A stretch of 64,000 nucleotides of DNA from an uncultured Acidobacteriaceae bacterium (GCA_903911925.1 CAIWFH010000188.1:4930-68929), one strand, 5' to 3'. Positions 42,676-63,191 are shown, counted from the stretch's first letter. Numbers and translations are program-made. The notes: generated by a model not told the origin, from the letters alone.

Positions 42676-44800
<2,125 letters not shown>

Positions 44801-44827: not shown

Positions 44828-46331
<1,504 letters not shown>

Positions 46332-49053: not shown

Positions 49054-50535
49054 TTACCAGAAAGTACAAGTAACAAGATGCGGCGGGCCTGCGTGGTTGT
49101 CCAGAATCTGCGTACGCAGTACGGCTTCCATATTCAGCCGCTGCCAATCGCGCGGCGCGTGCGCGGTCAACTCCGCTGTGCGCGCGGGGTCAAGCAGAAA
49201 CTGCGCGGCTGCGTTGGTGCCGTTGGCGCCCAGCCCTGCCACCACCAGCACCGGCCGCCCGGTGGTCTGGTCGAAGATACGGGCCACAAGGGCGAAGTCC
49301 TCGGTGGCGTGGTCGAAAGACTGTGCCATGTTTACGTTCCATCCGCCCTGCTCCGGATGCTGCCGGTCTTCGATGGAATAAATATAGGTACCGCCGCGCC
49401 GCACAAAGTGAAAGCGCAGCGGCTCGGTCACCCGCATGGTCCACACGTTATCGAGGCCGCCCACCAGCACGCTGGCCCCGCGCTGCAAGTCCGGATAACT
49501 GGCCTGCGAAGAGAGTTCGAGCGCAAAGGGCTTGTTGTGCTGCGCAAGAAAACCCACGAGTCCGGCCTGCGCCAGCGTGTCGCGATAGTTGACCATCTCG
49601 CCCATGCGCAACAGTTGAATGAGCCCGGCGGCTTGCGCCTGGTTGCGGTCGGCCGAAGCGCTGACAGTGGAGGATAGATCCGCGATCACCAGTTGCACTT
49701 GCCCCGGCTCGCTGAGAATTGGCGCCCATAACTGGCGGTTTGCGCCGTGCGCCGACTGGTTGGCGTTCCAGGCAATCAGCGCAGAAGCAACGACAACAGC
49801 CAACACCGCCGCCGATGCCCCCCAACGGAGAGAAAGAGCAAAAGAACGACGCACTGGATAGGCGGCATCTCCGTCAGTTGAATCTGAGCTGCCATCGATC
49901 AAGTGGACGACTACGGATTCCCTGGCAGGTGATTGACTGGCGGGAAGGCCAGGAGAGCCCCCCTCAGGGGCTGAAGCCCGATTTATAGAGATAGCATTTT
50001 CGGCACGACTAAAATCATGCCCTATTACAAGACCCTGCGGATCCCCGGCGCGAAGGAGTTCGTGCCCTGCGACAGGGCCTGGGCTCTCCACAACAGCTGG
50101 CGCCTGCCGAAAGACCGGCACATAACTGCCCGGCCGCAGATCGATCTGCAACTCCCCGGCGTGTTCCGGCTGGTGATAGTACTGGGCGATCCGCTTGCGA
50201 ACTTCGCTGGCTGTGAGCCGTACCACCGTATCCTGGTTGGTGTCGTAATCCGGCGCGCGATGGAAAACGGTTACGCCAAGCGTGCGTTCCTTCAGCAGCG
50301 CCTCGTTCCCATCCAGTGCCTGCTCCACCAGGAACCGCAGCAGGGCGGGGTAGCGTTTGCTGTTTGAGAAAAGCGGACTCTCCAGCATCCGCTCCAACTG
50401 CCTGCGGACCGCCTTCTGGTCGCCTTCCGTTGCAGGAATCCAGCCATCGATGTGTGCTTCAGTTTCGATCATGCGATTCAACGCCTTGAAAACTGGTTGG
50501 CCGCTCACGCAGCCGCAATCCCCTGCTCCGTTCAA
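49054..50535 (-). CDS. membrane-spanning regulator-like protein (cytoplasmic wHTH-like N-domain, one TM, periplasmic domain); alternative start 50472
   Basis: QLERML...F...LLRFLVE...LKERTLG...F...VVR..ASEVRKRIAQYY...PGSYVPVF N-domain; TM WGASAAVLAVVVASALIAW. Confidence 0.8.
   Translation of the reverse strand: MNGAGDCGCVSGQPVFKALNRMIETEAHIDGWIPATEGDQKAVRRQLERMLESPLFSNSKRYPALLRFLVEQALDGNEALLKERTLGVTVFHRAPDYDTNQDTVVRLTASEVRKRIAQYYHQPEHAGELQIDLRPGSYVPVFRQAPAVVESPGPVAGHELLRAGDPQGLVIGHDFSRAENAISINRASAPEGGSPGLPASQSPARESVVVHLIDGSSDSTDGDAAYPVRRSFALSLRWGASAAVLAVVVASALIAWNANQSAHGANRQLWAPILSEPGQVQLVIADLSSTVSASADRNQAQAAGLIQLLRMGEMVNYRDTLAQAGLVGFLAQHNKPFALELSSQASYPDLQRGASVLVGGLDNVWTMRVTEPLRFHFVRRGGTYIYSIEDRQHPEQGGWNVNMAQSFDHATEDFALVARIFDQTTGRPVLVVAGLGANGTNAAAQFLLDPARTAELTAHAPRDWQRLNMEAVLRTQILDNHAGPPHLVTCTFW
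49957..50034. repeat. REP-like composite element inside a CDS
   Basis: ccccctcaggggctgaagccc...cggcacgactaaaatcatgccctattacaagacc; shares gggctgaagccc and tcRtgccct..t.caa with the intergenic copy at 58389-58434. Confidence 0.75.
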
Positions 50536-53855: not shown

Positions 53856-54398
53856 ATGAAGCATCTGCTTGTTTGTACAAGCCTGCTTGTTGCCGCCACC
53901 ACCTTATTGGCGCAGCAGGGCCCGCCCAAAAGTCCGTCCACCACTGAAACGGCGAAGATCGGCAGCACGGCCATCACCGTCACGTATAGCTCGCCGCGGG
54001 TGAACGGCCGCGCCGGCCACATCTACACCAAAGGCGGCCTCATCAGCCGCGACCCCCATTACCCGGTGTGGCGCGCAGGAGCCAACGCCGCCACCAAGCT
54101 GCACACCGACGGGGGCATCACTTTGGGTTCACTCAAGGTGCCCGCCGGCGACTACACCCTGTTCGTCGATATTTCCGATCCCGACAACTGGACGCTCATT
54201 GTCAACAAGCAGACCGGCCAGTGGGGCCTGAGTTACGACGCCGCTCAGGACCTGGGCAAGGTTAAGATGACCATGACCAAGCCTTCCCCTCCGGTTGAAA
54301 ACCTGAAATACACCATTACCAGCCTCGGCACGGACCGCGGCGAACTCAAGCTGAGTTGGGAAAACCACGCAGGCGCCGTGCCCATCACCGCGCATTGA
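53856..54398 (+). CDS. DUF2911-family secreted protein (copy 1)
   Basis: YSSPRVNGR, VWRAGANAATKL, VPAGDYTLF, WTLIVNK. Confidence 0.9.
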   Translation: MKHLLVCTSLLVAATTLLAQQGPPKSPSTTETAKIGSTAITVTYSSPRVNGRAGHIYTKGGLISRDPHYPVWRAGANAATKLHTDGGITLGSLKVPAGDYTLFVDISDPDNWTLIVNKQTGQWGLSYDAAQDLGKVKMTMTKPSPPVENLKYTITSLGTDRGELKLSWENHAGAVPITAH

Positions 54399-54508: not shown

Positions 54509-55060
54509 ATGAAGCAAGTTCTGGTTTGTGCAAGTCTGATTGTTGCTGTCGCCACCCTGTTCGCCCAGCAAGCTCCGTCCACCCCGCCCAAGAGCCCGGC
54601 CGCCACTGAGTCGGCCAAGATCGTCGGCAAGGCCATCACCATCGTTTACAGTTCGCCGCGCGTCAACGGCCGCGCCGGAGCCATCTTCACCAAGGATGGC
54701 GTGATCAGCAAGAACCCAAATTATCCCGTGTGGCGTGCCGGAGCCAATGCCGCCACCAAGCTCCACACCGACGCCAACCTGACTATCGGCAAGGTCAAAG
54801 TGCCCAAGGGCGACTACAGCCTTTTCGTCGACATCGCCGATCCCGACAACTGGGTGCTGATCGTCAACAAGCAAACCGGCATGTCACCTTTTGCTTACGA
54901 CAGCAGCCAAAACCTGGGCCGCGTTCCCATGACCATGACCAAGCCGAAGGCGCCCATCGAGAACCTGAAGTACACCATCAAGAGCCTCGGCAGCGGCAAA
55001 GCCAAACTCAGCCTTGAGTGGGAGAACCACATCGCATCGGTTTCCGTCAGCGTCCGCTAG
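54509..55060 (+). CDS. DUF2911-family secreted protein (copy 2)
   Basis: YSSPRVNGR, VWRAGANAATKL, VPKGDYSLF. Confidence 0.9.
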   Translation: MKQVLVCASLIVAVATLFAQQAPSTPPKSPAATESAKIVGKAITIVYSSPRVNGRAGAIFTKDGVISKNPNYPVWRAGANAATKLHTDANLTIGKVKVPKGDYSLFVDIADPDNWVLIVNKQTGMSPFAYDSSQNLGRVPMTMTKPKAPIENLKYTIKSLGSGKAKLSLEWENHIASVSVSVR

Positions 55061-55831: not shown

Positions 55832-57544
55832 GTGGCGGATTTCGATACATCGATTCGAACCATTCGGGGCATACAGCAGTCGTTTCTAATCCCGGCTCTC
55901 GCTCCGGATAGAGTTCCCCTTGAGCCCAAGGGCGTGGTGTATACGAAACGCTGGGTTGTTGAGATGCTTCTTGATCTTGCGGGCTACACCTCCGGCGCCG
56001 ACCTTGTCGAAGCCTTAGCTGTTGAGCCCGCAGCGGGCGAAGGGGCATTCCTGGGCCCGATGATTGAACGGCTGATAGATTCCTGCCGGCGCCACGGCTG
56101 GTCAGTCTCGGATTGTCACAAGTCACTTATCGCCTACGAATTGAATGATGTGAGCGCTGGCCGGGCACGCGCGCTGGCGGTGGAGGTATTGACGGCCCGA
56201 GGGGTGAACCGTTCAACCGCGGATAGTCTCGCTCAAAGCTGGGTTCGCACTGGCGATTTCCTTTTGGGCTCGATGGGCATCGAGGCGGACTTTGTGATTG
56301 GTAATCCTCCCTATATTCGTCTTGAAGAGATTCCGGAGGAAATTGCCCTTCTCTATCGCAGAACGTTTTCAACCATGTGCGGGCGAGCAGACCTGTATGT
56401 GGCATTCTTTGAGGCGGCGCTACGGCTGCTTAAGAAGAACGGAACTTGTGCGTTTATTTGCGCTGACAGATGGATGCGTAACCAGTACGGCGCCGAACTG
56501 CGGGAGTTGATCACATCGGAATTCGATGTGAAGGTTGTTATTGAGATGCACAAAGCCGATGCTTTCCACGACGAAGTGGACGCATACCCTGCCGTTACCG
56601 TGATCCGGCGAAGGAAGCAAGGGCCGGCCGTCGTGGCAAGTGCGGGTCCGGAGGTAGCAGGCATTTCTCCTCGGATTCTCACGGCGACACTCTTGGATAC
56701 AACGAACGGAAAGAAGGCCGCAACTCTGCCTGGGCTGCGCGCTGCTCTTGTGGAACGCTGGTTTAAGGGCGACGACCCGTGGCCTTGCACTACGCCTGAC
56801 CAGCTTAGGCTTCTGCGGCGGCTGGAAGAGGAGTTCTTGCCGCTCGATGCGAGTGCTAAAGTGGGAATTGGTGTGGCAACAGGGAATGATCGCGTATTCA
56901 TCACGAAGGATGTTAACTTGGTTGAATCGTCGCGCCTGCTCAGGCTTGCGATGGCGAAGGACATCACGGACGGCATCATAAAATGGTCTGGGCATTATCT
57001 TGTAGACCCCTGGAATCGGGAAGGCCTAGTCAAACTTGAAGAGTATCCGCGTCTGCGTGGATATTTAGAGGGGAACGGGGCCGCCTTGAAAAGGCGTCAT
57101 ACCGCGATTAAAAGCACTCATGCCTGGTACAAGACCATTGATCGCGTGAACCACTCTCTGACTCAGCGGCCCAAACTATATATAGCGGACATCAAGAACA
57201 TCCTCGATCCAGTGCTCGACACTGGCGAGACCTATCCACACCACAATCTATATTTCATTCAATCGGATGAGTGGGATCTGGAGGTACTGGGCGGAATTCT
57301 AATATCGGCAGTCGGCCAATTCTTTATCGAATCATATGGTGTCCGCATGCGCGGGGGATATCTACGCTTTCAGGCGCAGTATTTGCGGCGAATCCGTCTC
57401 CCGGATTTCAAGAAGCTATCGAAAATACACGCAGAGCAGTTGTCGAAAGCGTTCAGAGGCCGCGACAGACAACTTGCGACACGGACAGCTCTCACGATTT
57501 ATGGGATCGACGAGCAAGAAATGGAGTTGGCCATTGGACATTGA
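55832..57544 (+). CDS. type II N6-adenine DNA methyltransferase (gamma class, M.PaeR7I/M.XhoI-like)
   Basis: VVYT, motif I VEPAAGEGAFL, motif IV VIGNPPYIR, DLYVAFFE, C-terminal TRD YPHHNLYFI. Confidence 0.92.
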   Translation: MADFDTSIRTIRGIQQSFLIPALAPDRVPLEPKGVVYTKRWVVEMLLDLAGYTSGADLVEALAVEPAAGEGAFLGPMIERLIDSCRRHGWSVSDCHKSLIAYELNDVSAGRARALAVEVLTARGVNRSTADSLAQSWVRTGDFLLGSMGIEADFVIGNPPYIRLEEIPEEIALLYRRTFSTMCGRADLYVAFFEAALRLLKKNGTCAFICADRWMRNQYGAELRELITSEFDVKVVIEMHKADAFHDEVDAYPAVTVIRRRKQGPAVVASAGPEVAGISPRILTATLLDTTNGKKAATLPGLRAALVERWFKGDDPWPCTTPDQLRLLRRLEEEFLPLDASAKVGIGVATGNDRVFITKDVNLVESSRLLRLAMAKDITDGIIKWSGHYLVDPWNREGLVKLEEYPRLRGYLEGNGAALKRRHTAIKSTHAWYKTIDRVNHSLTQRPKLYIADIKNILDPVLDTGETYPHHNLYFIQSDEWDLEVLGGILISAVGQFFIESYGVRMRGGYLRFQAQYLRRIRLPDFKKLSKIHAEQLSKAFRGRDRQLATRTALTIYGIDEQEMELAIGH

Positions 57545-58292
57545 GAAACGGCTGCACGAAGCAGTCCAGAGCTACTGGGATGCCCGGAACAAGAACAAAG
57601 AAAAGCAGATTCAGTCCGGCAAAATAGACGCAGGTACACGCGGGGAAGTGACCGGCGGAACGCAAATGGGTGCTCTCGAGGTATTGGTTGCGGACATCCT
57701 TTGCGATGCGGGTTTGAAGAGACTCGACATTCGCACCCGCACAGCACTGGAACTGCCGGGGTATTTCAGGGCCACTAAGAAGTGGGACCTTATCGTTGTA
57801 TCCGAAGAGCAGTTGGTGCTGGCGATGGAGTTCAAATCCCAGGCGGGCAAATCGATCGGCAATAACGTCAATAATAGGTCGGAGGAGGCTGTTGGAAGTG
57901 CAAAGGATATTTGGACTGCTTTCCGCGAAGGACGCTTCGGAAACTCCCCAACCCCATTCCTTGGCTATTTCTTCCTGCTTGAAGATCGCGCCAAGGTAAA
58001 GACCCCAGTTGGGAACAAGGAACCATACTTTCTCGTCGATCCGGAATTTAGAGGTGCGGCAAAGAAAACCAAAGATGGTACGGACAAGTTCCAAGGTATT
58101 TCGTATAGCAAGCGATATGAGTTGCTTTGTCGGCGCTTGGTGCTTGAACGCCTCTATACTTCCGCATGTTTCATCATGGCGACGAATGACAAGCACACTG
58201 AAATCAATCAGCCCGCCGATGACCTCAGCTTTCGAAGGTTTGCGGCGACCCTCACGGGGCACGCTGTGACATTTCTGGGCAGCAAAAAGTAA
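57534..58292 (+). CDS. type II restriction endonuclease, PaeR7I/XhoI family
   Basis: GTRGEVTGGTQM, LPGYFRATKKWDL, EFKSQ, GNNVNNRSEEAVG; TTG start at 57534 with ggag RBS, overlapping the MTase stop. Confidence 0.88.
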   Translation: MDIEKRLHEAVQSYWDARNKNKEKQIQSGKIDAGTRGEVTGGTQMGALEVLVADILCDAGLKRLDIRTRTALELPGYFRATKKWDLIVVSEEQLVLAMEFKSQAGKSIGNNVNNRSEEAVGSAKDIWTAFREGRFGNSPTPFLGYFFLLEDRAKVKTPVGNKEPYFLVDPEFRGAAKKTKDGTDKFQGISYSKRYELLCRRLVLERLYTSACFIMATNDKHTEINQPADDLSFRRFAATLTGHAVTFLGSKK

Positions 58293-58388
58293 CCGTTATC
58301 CTTCGTTGAGATGTCCCGAGAGGCCAAGAACGCGGACCTTGCGGTCTGCGTTCTTTATTGGAACAAATTGTTGTTGGTTGTTGCGGCA

Positions 58389-58482
58389 GTCAGGGCTGAA
58401 GCCCTGACCGACTAGTCGTGCCCTGTTGCAAAGCGCGGGCGGGGACGCCCGCGCTACAGCCGGTCGGGAGAGCGGCGCTACA
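58389..58482. repeat. cluster of REP-like palindromes between the REase and PFOR
   Basis: gtcagggc-tgaa-gccctgac; tagtcgtgccctgttgcaaagc; gcgggcggggacgcccgcgctac; agccggtcgggagagcggcgctac. Confidence 0.75.
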
Positions 58483-58490
58483 ACTTGCCT

Positions 58491-63191
<4,701 letters not shown>

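What the first reader, a model, noticed from the sequence alone, without database searches (positions are those of the whole stretch)
49957..50034. REP-like palindromic element inserted in-frame in a protein-coding gene
A roughly 78-bp element (ccccctcagggg-ctgaagccc...cggcacgactaaaatcatgccct-attacaa) is of the same family as the intergenic copy at 58389-58434. It lies inside the 49054-50535 CDS without breaking the frame and encodes GLVIGHDFSRAENAISINRASAPEGG in the linker between the cytoplasmic domain and the TM helix. It is also more AT-rich than the surrounding codons. This parallels the Rickettsia palindromic elements that add peptide segments to proteins. I am not aware of it being described for Acidobacteria, where it could be a systematic route of protein diversification.
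Basis: partly seen in the sequence, partly recalled or inferred. Interest (0 to 1): 0.7.

Follow-up and report, generated by a model that had tools for sequence, protein, structure and literature searches.

The report
Transposase-linked hairpin repeat translated inside a gene
A 78-base mobile hairpin repeat, whose relatives flank a small transposase gene in many soil and lake Acidobacteria, has landed in frame inside a membrane-protein gene and adds 26 amino acids to a floppy linker; the same repeat has done this to many housekeeping proteins, a known kind of event seen here in a new bacterial group.

Summary
Window 49957-50034 is a full-length but decaying copy of a dispersed repeat about 75-80 nt long. 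Its layout is hairpin 1 (CAGGGGCTRAAGCCC), a 20-25-nt T-rich variable spacer, hairpin 2 (GGCACGACTGAAGTCGTGCC), then a short tail.

It lies antisense, stop-free and in frame in CDS 49054-50472(-). There it encodes GLVIGHDFSRAENAISINRASAPEGG, in a linker that AlphaFold2 models with low confidence, between a conserved N-domain and the TM helix. Only three orthologues (82% identical) carry it. P0004 and 24 other aligned orthologues lack it.

It is the inverted flanking repeat of an IS200-like Y1 transposase gene of RAYT type. It flanks 6 of 6 such genes in the element-seeded loci. Among 60 independently fetched loci with both flanks available, 44 have at least one copy.

In-frame copies also sit in RNase R, RarA, UvrC (two), MetRS, FolC (two) and ScpA. 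A peptide profile matches 1758 protein clusters.

This is a new member of a known kind: REP/RAYT repeats and Rickettsia-RPE-like coding insertions. Mobilisation by the transposase, and any effect on the proteins, are inferred and not shown.

The parts
49957..50034 (+). Full-length repeat copy. The element's own HP1-to-HP2 orientation is on the + strand. It is read on the - strand as 26 codons, GLVIGHDFSRAENAISINRASAPEGG.
   Evidence: It matches the family consensus from 130 copies. Orthologous copies in L121 and L123 are canonical.
49963..49979 (+). Hairpin-1 module, CTCAGGGGCTGAAGCCC.
   Evidence: the left boundary is conserved from about -7. Compensatory variant CAGCGGCTAAAGCCG appears.
49980..50001 (+). 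Variable T/A-rich spacer, GATTTATAGAGATAGCATTTTC (GC 27%); encodes (E)NAISIN(R).
50002..50021 (+). Hairpin-2 module, GGCACGACTAAAATCATGCC. It has decayed: two C.A mismatches on the + strand, which are G.T wobbles on the mRNA strand. Its reverse complement encodes GHDFSRA.
50022..50034 (+). Tail, CTATTACAAGACC, of the CCCTGTTACAAAGC subfamily.
   Evidence: the tail is conserved for about 10 nt and co-varies with the RAYT locus.
50047..50077 (+). Degenerate second hairpin-2+tail module, GGCGCGAAGGAGTTCGTGCCCTGCGACAGGG; encodes ..VAGHELLRA..
   Evidence: Present in the window and in P0002. A 45-nt stretch containing it is absent from P0003.
49054..50472 (-). Host CDS (P0001, 472 aa from the conserved Met; the open frame extends to 50535). 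N-domain about 50098-50472, linker, TM helix about 49768-49842, then a conserved C-domain. Function unknown.
   Evidence: No Pfam hit and no structural match.
58389..58434 (+). Intergenic short or rearranged copy. A perfect HP1-type hairpin, GTCAGGGCTGAAGCCCTGAC, is nested in an HP2-like hairpin (GGCA|CGACTAGTCGTGCC), followed by the tail CTGTTGCAAAGC. It lies between convergent ORFs.
   Evidence: (fold z-score -5.4).

Best explanation
Window 49957-50034 is a fossil copy of a non-autonomous, bipartite hairpin repeat (REP/BIME-like, about 75-80 nt). The repeat belongs to a RAYT-type Y1 (HUH, IS200-like) transposase system that is common in Acidobacteriaceae.

Shown:
- The repeat family exists and is dispersed.
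- Its hairpin-2 stem is maintained by compensatory changes.
- Inverted copies bracket the transposase gene, with hairpin 1 abutting the start codon.
- The window copy sits antisense, stop-free and in frame in the low-confidence (modelled as disordered) linker of a conserved single-pass membrane protein.
- The copy is shared by three lineages and absent from P0004 and the other aligned orthologues.
- All length differences in the linker among the three element-carrying orthologues are multiples of three.
- The same repeat is embedded in frame in many housekeeping proteins.

Inferred:
- Copies are mobilised in trans by the transposase, as single-stranded hairpin DNA and without target duplication.
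- Insertions survive in genes only when they fall in tolerant linkers or loops, in a stop-free frame, with a net length divisible by three.
- The window insertion happened once, in the common ancestor of P0001-P0003. A partial tandem duplication of the hairpin-2 module followed.
- The 26 (+14) extra residues are translated as a neutral linker extension.
- The window copy is now decaying by C>T changes and is probably immobile.
For: Family: at least 120 loci and 130 copies with a common architecture.

Transposase link:
- PF01797 Y1_Tnp, E = 3e-14.
- 6 RAYT genes in the element-seeded loci are all bracketed by inverted copies, and the tails are matched within each locus.
- Reverse test on 80 RAYT loci fetched by protein only: the full element lies within 250 nt upstream in 43 of 73, and downstream in 33 of 67. 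At least one copy is present in 44 of 60 loci with both flanks available. With a looser HP1 anchor, 119 of 160 flanks carry it.
- Protein motifs [DN]H[VMI]H, WQ and YIxxNP match class 2 TnpA_REP of PMC6006769.

Hairpin 2: 6 of 8 pairs show compensatory changes, 95.7% of cells are paired, and 0 of 500 shuffles reach this. No target-site duplication.

Coding context:
- Orthologue alignment, DNA alignment and pLDDT below 50 for residues 127-209.
- GC3 is 31% against 68.5% for the gene.

Recurrence:
- RNase R, RarA, UvrC (two), MetRS and an MBL hydrolase.
- The RarA insert replaces a 10-residue loop of E. coli RarA, PDB 3PVS.
- ScpA, FolC (two) and an AlaRS fragment carry it too, along with a 906-aa open reading frame with a DnaE-like HHH_6 hit and five tandem copies, which may be a pseudogene or a mis-called gene.
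- 1758 cluster representatives match at E <= 1e-3.
- Intergenic copies show no length-mod-3 constraint.
Against: - No transposase gene lies in the 64-kb window, and the copy number in this genome is unknown.
- Transposition by any RAYT has never been shown in vivo, and nothing here shows mobility directly.
- The classic 5' GTAG tag of REPs is absent.
- The closest orthologue without the element (P0004) differs over the whole linker, so a clean empty site cannot be shown for this gene.
- There is no RNA or protein evidence of translation.
- Between P0002 and P0003 the hairpin modules are 54/54 identical, yet the spacer is only 3/19 identical. Simple 'insert once, then drift' does not explain this.
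Confidence: 0.85

Rival explanations
1. The element acts mainly at the RNA or DNA level, for example as an mRNA hairpin that affects decay, ribosome pausing or termination, or as a protein-binding DNA site. Its translation would then be a by-product, and intragenic copies would be kept for that cis role.
For: - The hairpin-2 stem is under structural selection.
- In the window copy both arm changes keep G.U pairing on the mRNA strand.
- The modules are 54/54 identical between P0002 and P0003 although the CDS is 86% identical.
- In a crude ORF-based count, convergent gene ends were the commonest setting of intergenic copies (32, against 15-21 for each other arrangement), as for REPs that stabilise 3' ends.
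Against: - Structural selection is equally expected if the transposase must recognise the hairpin.
- There is no Rfam match.
- The window copy's fold is not better than shuffled sequence (z = -0.1 and -1.1).
- Host genes and insertion sites are unrelated to each other.
Confidence: 0.1
2. The encoded peptide (..GHDFSRA..ALAPEG..) is itself a selected protein module, such as a short linear motif. It would spread because it is useful to the proteins that receive it.
For: - The same reading frame recurs in many real proteins.
- The peptide is retained in three orthologues.
Against: - Other frames of the same DNA are also used: QGTTSVVP in MetRS and the MBL hydrolase.
- Conservation follows the DNA hairpins and not the peptide. 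The spacer-encoded residues are free to vary.
- Most matches are spurious short ORFs over intergenic copies.
- The antisense bias is about what stop-codon content predicts: 184 against 108 open frames.
- GC3 of 31% shows no codon adaptation.
Confidence: 0.04
3. It is an ordinary MITE derived from a DDE-transposase insertion sequence. The link to the Y1 transposase gene would then be coincidental.
For: It is short, non-coding in origin and dispersed, with a 6-nt terminal inverted match (TCAGGG / CCCTGA).
Against: - There is no target-site duplication at any tested boundary.
- There are no long terminal inverted repeats.
- Placement around Y1 transposase genes is tight and orientation-specific, in both the forward and the reverse test.
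- The tail subfamily co-varies with the transposase locus.
Confidence: 0.03
4. The segment is not translated. Either the real start is downstream, or the segment is removed from the mRNA or protein. Alternatively, it is ancestral linker sequence that only resembles the repeat.
For: There is no expression data for this organism. The linker is hypervariable, so a clean empty site is missing.
Against: - The conserved N-domain (pLDDT about 90, with many invariant residues across 28 orthologues) lies upstream in the same open frame.
- Length differences in the linker among the three element-carrying orthologues are multiples of three.
- 78 nt is too short for any known self-splicing element, and no ribozyme was hit.
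- The orthologous copies are base-for-base canonical family members.
- P0004 and the 24 other aligned orthologues lack the segment.
Confidence: 0.03

Closest known systems
REP / BIME / REPIN repeats with their RAYT (TnpA_REP) transposase, known as 'REPtrons', in E. coli, Pseudomonas and others
   Same: - Short hairpin repeats, dispersed and mostly intergenic.
- Two hairpin units in opposite sense form one element, as in a BIME or REPIN.
- A single small Y1/HUH transposase gene with class 2 motifs is bracketed by inverted copies.
- No target duplication.
- Occasional copies lie inside genes (PMC3733652).
   Different: - There is no 5' GTAG/GTGG tag. Both hairpins are instead preceded by TCAGGG.
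- The two hairpins differ in sequence and are separated by a 20-25-nt variable T-rich spacer.
- An 8-12-nt tail co-varies with the transposase locus.
- The host phylum is Acidobacteriota.
TIRYT / 'TIRtron' genes of Acidobacteria (Di Nocera et al. 2013, PMC3733652) and the class 3 Y1 genes with about 600 flanking-structure copies in Solibacter usitatus (Quentin et al. 2018, PMC6006769)
   Same: - Acidobacterial Y1 transposase genes flanked by inverted repeats, some of them 'double palindromic'.
- Some of these repeats form repeat families.
   Different: - I could not see the published repeat sequences. The figures are not held, and the supplements contain no match, so identity is untested.
- The proteins here carry class 2 motifs (WQ, YIxxNP), not class 3 (W[TA], Y....Q), and lack the HTH tail of subclass 2.1.
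- In the passages of those papers that I read, no coding insertions are reported for Acidobacteria.
Rickettsia palindromic elements (RPE; from my own knowledge, Ogata et al. 2000)
   Same: A palindromic repeat inserted in frame in many unrelated genes, including housekeeping ones. It adds peptide segments of about 30-50 residues in tolerant regions.
   Different: - No sequence relation was tested, and none is expected.
- RPEs have no known cognate transposase.
- The hosts differ: obligate intracellular alphaproteobacteria there, free-living Acidobacteriaceae here.
Intragenic REPs and enterobacterial RU/ERIC-type repeats (PMC3733652; PMC2759123)
   Same: In-frame repeat copies in known proteins, notably replication and repair genes. 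Here they are in UvrC, RarA and a DnaE-like ORF.
   Different: A different repeat family and a different phylum. Here a single frame matches 1758 protein clusters, though most of those are spurious short ORFs.

Membership tests
REP/REPIN-RAYT system (REPtron) | Short repeat that forms a stable hairpin whose stem is conserved as a structure | tested here: met
   HP2 is 95.7% paired, 6 of 8 pairs carry compensatory changes, and 0 of 500 shuffles reach this. An HP1 compensatory variant (GCGGC..GCCGC) appears.
REP/REPIN-RAYT system (REPtron) | Y1/HUH transposase gene of RAYT type flanked by inverted copies of the repeat | tested here: met
   (6 of 6 loci, both sides). Searches give the reverse test on 80 loci fetched by protein. 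Motifs [DN]HxH, WQ and YIxxNP are, compared with the table.
REP/REPIN-RAYT system (REPtron) | Many dispersed, mainly extragenic copies per genome | tested here: inconclusive
There are 145 full copies in 0.94 Mb of element-seeded loci and 2 copies in the 64-kb window. No whole genome could be counted.
REP/REPIN-RAYT system (REPtron) | Conserved 5' GTAG/GTGG (or CGTC) tetranucleotide next to the hairpin | tested here: not met
   the conserved foot is (C/A)TCAGGG on both hairpins, with no GTAG.
REP/REPIN-RAYT system (REPtron) | Transposase binds and cleaves the repeat as single-stranded DNA | not testable with these tools
   Needs biochemistry.
DDE-type MITE | Terminal inverted repeats of 10 nt or more, plus a target-site duplication | tested here: not met
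   only a 6-nt terminal match, and no duplication at any boundary offset.
Rickettsia palindromic elements | In-frame insertion of a palindromic repeat into many unrelated ORFs | tested here: met
   This shows the same behaviour only, not family membership.
Rickettsia palindromic elements | Sequence similarity to RPE-1..RPE-10 | not tested
   No RPE library was on hand. No Rfam family matched.
Described structured RNA families (Rfam 15) | Match to a curated covariance model | tested here: not met
   (window, gathering threshold: none). (four loci rich in copies, E <= 1: only chance hits elsewhere).

The most novel reading that the evidence does not exclude
Intragenic copies may not be dead fossils. 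They may remain active members of the repeat population. The hairpin modules would be kept canonical while the spacer between them is swapped, by gene conversion or by transposase-mediated replacement. In that case the system exchanges a cassette of about 7 residues inside many proteins, a built-in peptide-shuffling mechanism. The lead is P0002 against P0003: modules 54/54 identical and spacer 3/19 identical, in a CDS that is 86% identical overall.
Probability: 0.1. Interest if true: 0.75.

Novelty: new member of a known kind. Interest (0 to 1): 0.48.

Why it matters
- **Annotation.** The family explains hundreds of 'hypothetical proteins' of 40-80 aa in acidobacterial annotations, which are translated intergenic repeats. 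It also explains odd insertions in housekeeping proteins of a dominant soil and peat phylum.
- **A natural experiment.** The in-frame copies show which sites in RNase R, UvrC, MetRS, RarA and FolC tolerate an extra 25-30 residues.
- **RAYT biology.** The tight pairing of a compact Y1 transposase with a two-hairpin repeat, the co-varying tails, and abundant stem covariation make this a good system for asking how RAYTs recognise and move their repeats. That question is still open.

Tried and rejected
- **Rfam:** no family matched, either on the window at gathering threshold or on four copy-rich loci at E <= 1.
- **Host protein:** Pfam and Foldseek against the PDB on the AlphaFold2 model were uninformative. 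The gene's function stays unknown.
- **Word-index peptide search:** A 46-aa profile returned only proteins of 81 aa or shorter, so it could not see insertions in long proteins. It was replaced by the exhaustive profile search.
- **Expression:** no RNA runs hold this locus.
- **Population variation:** metagenome contigs of four lake or freshwater runs show no allele lacking the element. Contigs cannot prove absence.
- **Published repeat sequences:** the supplements of PMC3733652 hold no matching sequence.
- **Literature:** full-text searches for the hairpin sequence, for the peptide GHDFSRA, and for REP/MITE/RAYT together with Acidobacteria found no description of this family.
- **Target-site duplication:** none found.
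- **Orientation relative to neighbouring genes:** only a crude ORF proxy was used, giving a weak preference for convergent gene ends.
- **Solo hairpin-2 count:** discarded, because the palindrome matches both strands.

Full report
**1. The observation**

On the + strand the region reads as follows:
- CCCCTCAGGGGCTGAAGCCC at 49960-79
- a 22-nt AT-rich spacer at 49980-50001
- GGCACGACTAAAATCATGCC at 50002-21
- the tail CTATTACAAGAC

The minus-strand ORF 49054-50535 runs straight through this stretch. The 78 nt at 49957-50034 are exactly 26 codons, GLVIGHDFSRAENAISINRASAPEGG. The segment has 50% GC against 61.5% for the gene, and GC3 of 31% against 68.5%.

The intergenic sequence at 58389-58434 shares TCAGGG(G)CTGAAGCCC and GACTA..TC(A/G)TGCCCT(A/G)TT(A/G)CAA with it. 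These short matches are not significant within the window alone, so I looked outside the window.

**2. A real and widespread repeat family**

I scanned one genome per GTDB species with GGCTGAAGCCC-N(3-33)-GACT-N(1-5)-TCRTGCCCT. Nearly all are Acidobacteriaceae, Terracidiphilus, Sulfotelmatobacter or other Terriglobia MAGs.

The 130 copies share one architecture:
- a left end, cCTCAGGGGCTGAAGCCC (hairpin 1)
- a spacer of 17-28 nt, mostly 21-24 nt, T-rich (36% T), with little conservation
- CGGCACGACTGAAGTCGTGCC (hairpin 2)
- a tail of about 10 nt that falls into subfamilies (GATACAAA, GTTACAAA, GACAC.., TTCAAA, TCCCGA)

The total is about 75-80 nt, so the window copy is full length. The intergenic window copy is atypical. 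It reads as hairpin 2 with a perfect hairpin-1-type palindrome nested in its 5' arm. It lies between convergent ORFs.

No Rfam family matches. Some loci hold tandem arrays of whole units.

**3. What the repeat belongs to**

One spanning ORF in locus L013 turned out to be an IS200-like Y1 transposase (PF01797, E = 3e-14), with the repeat immediately 5' of it. A tblastn search of the element-seeded loci found six such genes. All six are bracketed on both sides by inverted copies. Hairpin 1 is proximal to the gene, and hairpin 2 with its tail is distal. The tail sequence is matched within each locus.

Those loci had been selected for the repeat, so I ran the reverse test. I fetched 80 homologues of the transposase from metagenome contigs by protein alone.
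- With strict motifs, the complete element lies within 250 nt upstream, in inverted orientation, in 43 of 73 loci. It lies downstream in 33 of 67.
- At least one copy is present in 44 of the 60 loci with both flanks available.
- With a looser hairpin-1 anchor, 119 of 160 flanks carry a two-hairpin element.
- The upstream copy typically ends 2-4 nt from the start codon.
- The misses are mostly the most distant homologues. Several of these carry a different second hairpin and a GCTTCCACC tail.

Background density in the window is about 1 copy per 30 kb. The association is therefore not chance.

The proteins carry [DN]H[VMI]H, WQ and YIxxNP. These are the class 2 (TnpA_REP/RAYT) signatures in the table of Quentin et al. 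2018 (PMC6006769). They are not the class 3 signature that the same paper reports for Solibacter.

Across RAYT-flanking copies the hairpin-2 stem is 95.7% paired. Compensatory changes occur in 6 of 8 pairs, and 0 of 500 shuffles reach this. The two outer pairs were fixed by my extraction pattern; the inner six were free. No target-site duplication exists at any plausible boundary. This fits HUH/Y1 chemistry and argues against a DDE-type MITE.

**4. The host gene and the insertion**

The protein has thousands of relatives. In an alignment of 28, the N-terminal 120 residues and the C-terminal 230 residues are highly conserved, and a hypervariable linker joins them.
- Only P0001 (the window), P0002 and P0003 carry GHDFSRA(E/D)...RA(S/L)APEG. 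These three are 82% identical.
- P0004 (75% identity in the search; 80% over the aligned columns; syntenic) and 24 more distant orthologues lack it.

At the DNA level, the P0002 and P0003 copies are canonical family members: TTGTAACAGGGCACGACTTCAGTCGTGCC, spacer, GGGCTTTAGCCCCTGAGG. The window copy differs from P0002 at four positions, all C/T, in the tail and first arm of hairpin 2 as read on the coding strand. Three of the four are synonymous.

The window and P0002 also carry a degenerate extra hairpin-2+tail module just upstream (window 50047-50077). A 45-nt stretch containing it is missing from P0003, as expected from unequal crossing-over between the two modules. The linker length differences among these three orthologues are multiples of three.

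AlphaFold2 gives pLDDT of about 90 for residues 10-125, below 50 for residues 127-209, and a helix from residue 211, which I read as the TM helix. The low-confidence stretch contains the insert at residues 147-172.

Because the whole linker of P0004 is unalignable, a clean empty site cannot be shown for this gene. The gene's function remains unknown.

**5. Is it recurrent?**

Of the 130 copies, 19 lie in open frames that extend at least 60 codons on both sides. Pfam confirms five as bona fide proteins carrying the insert:
- RNase R: between the RNB and S1 domains
- RarA/MgsA: splitting AAA_assoc_2
- UvrC: two separate inserts
- MetRS: between the anticodon-binding and tRNA_bind domains
- an MBL-fold hydrolase

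Against E. coli RarA (PDB 3PVS), the acidobacterial protein has 58 residues where the E. coli protein has about 10.

A profile of the encoded peptide was searched against 1.84 billion cluster representatives. It matches 1758 at E <= 1e-3 and 226 at E <= 1e-10.
- Most of the best hits are short spurious ORFs over intergenic copies or arrays.
- Real proteins among them include ScpA (three copies), a FolC/Mur-ligase protein (two inserts) and an AlaRS fragment.
- A 906-aa open reading frame with a DnaE-like HHH_6 hit carries five tandem copies. Much of it looks like out-of-frame translation, so it may be a pseudogene or a mis-called gene.

Two reading frames of the same DNA are used: GHDFSRA and GTTSVVP.

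Element length is not constrained to multiples of three overall: 40, 39 and 49 copies have length mod 3 of 0, 1 and 2. The antisense strand is stop-free more often, in 184 against 108 of 384 copy-frame combinations. Coding copies therefore look like the survivors of a filter, not like a designed coding module.

**6. Mechanism and what remains inferred**

The best-supported reading is a REP/BIME-like doublet that is mobilised in trans by a RAYT-type Y1 transposase. It would have been inserted once in the ancestor of three lineages, be translated as a neutral linker extension, and now be decaying in the window lineage.

Mobilisation, translation and neutrality are all inferences. No RNA runs hold the locus, and lake-metagenome contigs show no allele without the element.

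One feature is unexplained. Between P0002 and P0003 the hairpin modules are 54/54 identical and the spacer is 3/19 identical, while the CDS as a whole is 86% identical. This points to gene conversion from another copy, or to replacement at the same site. It is the basis of the more novel reading.

**7. Comparison with what is known**

REPs inside genes, often replication and repair genes, are described for Proteobacteria and others. Acidobacterial Y1 genes with inverted or 'double palindromic' flanks were noted as TIRYTs (PMC3733652). Rickettsia RPEs are the classic case of coding insertions (from my own knowledge).

This family shares the behaviour and the transposase class. It lacks the GTAG tag and has two unlike hairpins with a variable spacer.

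Full-text searches for the hairpin sequence, the peptide, and REP/MITE/RAYT together with Acidobacteria found no description of it. Subscription-only literature is not covered by these searches.

**Verdict**

This is a new member of a known kind, of moderate interest.

Noticed in passing
L121 / L123 (orthologues P0002 / P0003), aligned to window 49957-50034: The hairpin modules are 54/54 identical between the two orthologous intragenic copies. The 19-nt spacer is only 3/19 identical, at the same length, and the CDS overall is 86% identical. This suggests gene conversion or cassette replacement.
   Followed up: partly
window 58335-58365 and 58436-58462: Two GC-rich terminator-like hairpins face the convergent ORFs 57336-58292(+) and 58491-63191(-). 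They bracket the intergenic repeat copy, and the whole 58380-58475 stretch folds far better than shuffled sequence (z = -5.4).
   Followed up: partly
L028 810-1180; flanks of RAYT homologues in L198, L200, L204, L205: Other two-hairpin repeat families share hairpin 1 (GGGGCTAAAGCCC). They have different second hairpins (for example GCGGCCTGAAGGCCGC) and a GCTTCCACC-type tail. They flank the more distant transposase homologues, which hints at co-diversification of transposase and repeat.
   Followed up: no
L006 6060-6296; L052 4793-5126; L074 1944-2080; L068 1221-1343: Tandem arrays of the whole element with periods of 91, 140, 80 and 70 nt. The units are near-identical, spacers included.
   Followed up: no
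L060 (contig CAVPNS010000007.1, 557 kb): The UvrC gene with two in-frame inserts lies on a contig of a MAG labelled 'uncultured Gammaproteobacteria'. L061 is labelled Verrucomicrobiia. This is either mis-binning or mislabelling, or the repeat occurs outside Acidobacteriota.
   Followed up: no
L047 protein residues about 240-265: Upstream of the clear insert in RarA there is a further degenerate look-alike (KGHVAGHDTNRPETAPSAG). It resembles the 1.5-copy arrangement in the window gene.
   Followed up: no
window 43804-44197 and 45335-45728; 53921-54218 and 54583-54880: Two pairs of direct repeats, 69-90% and 78% identical. The first pair starts two neighbouring ORFs with [23 protein letters not shown], which looks like tandem aldo/keto-reductase-like paralogues.
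   Followed up: no
protein database hits P0121-P0240: Hundreds of annotated 'hypothetical proteins' of 28-81 aa are translations of intergenic copies of this repeat, with consensus GFVTGHDFSRADKANKINRALAPEG. Other recurring strings in them (FFRSLFSRA.., PFSAACLAPEG) suggest further repeat families.
   Followed up: partly
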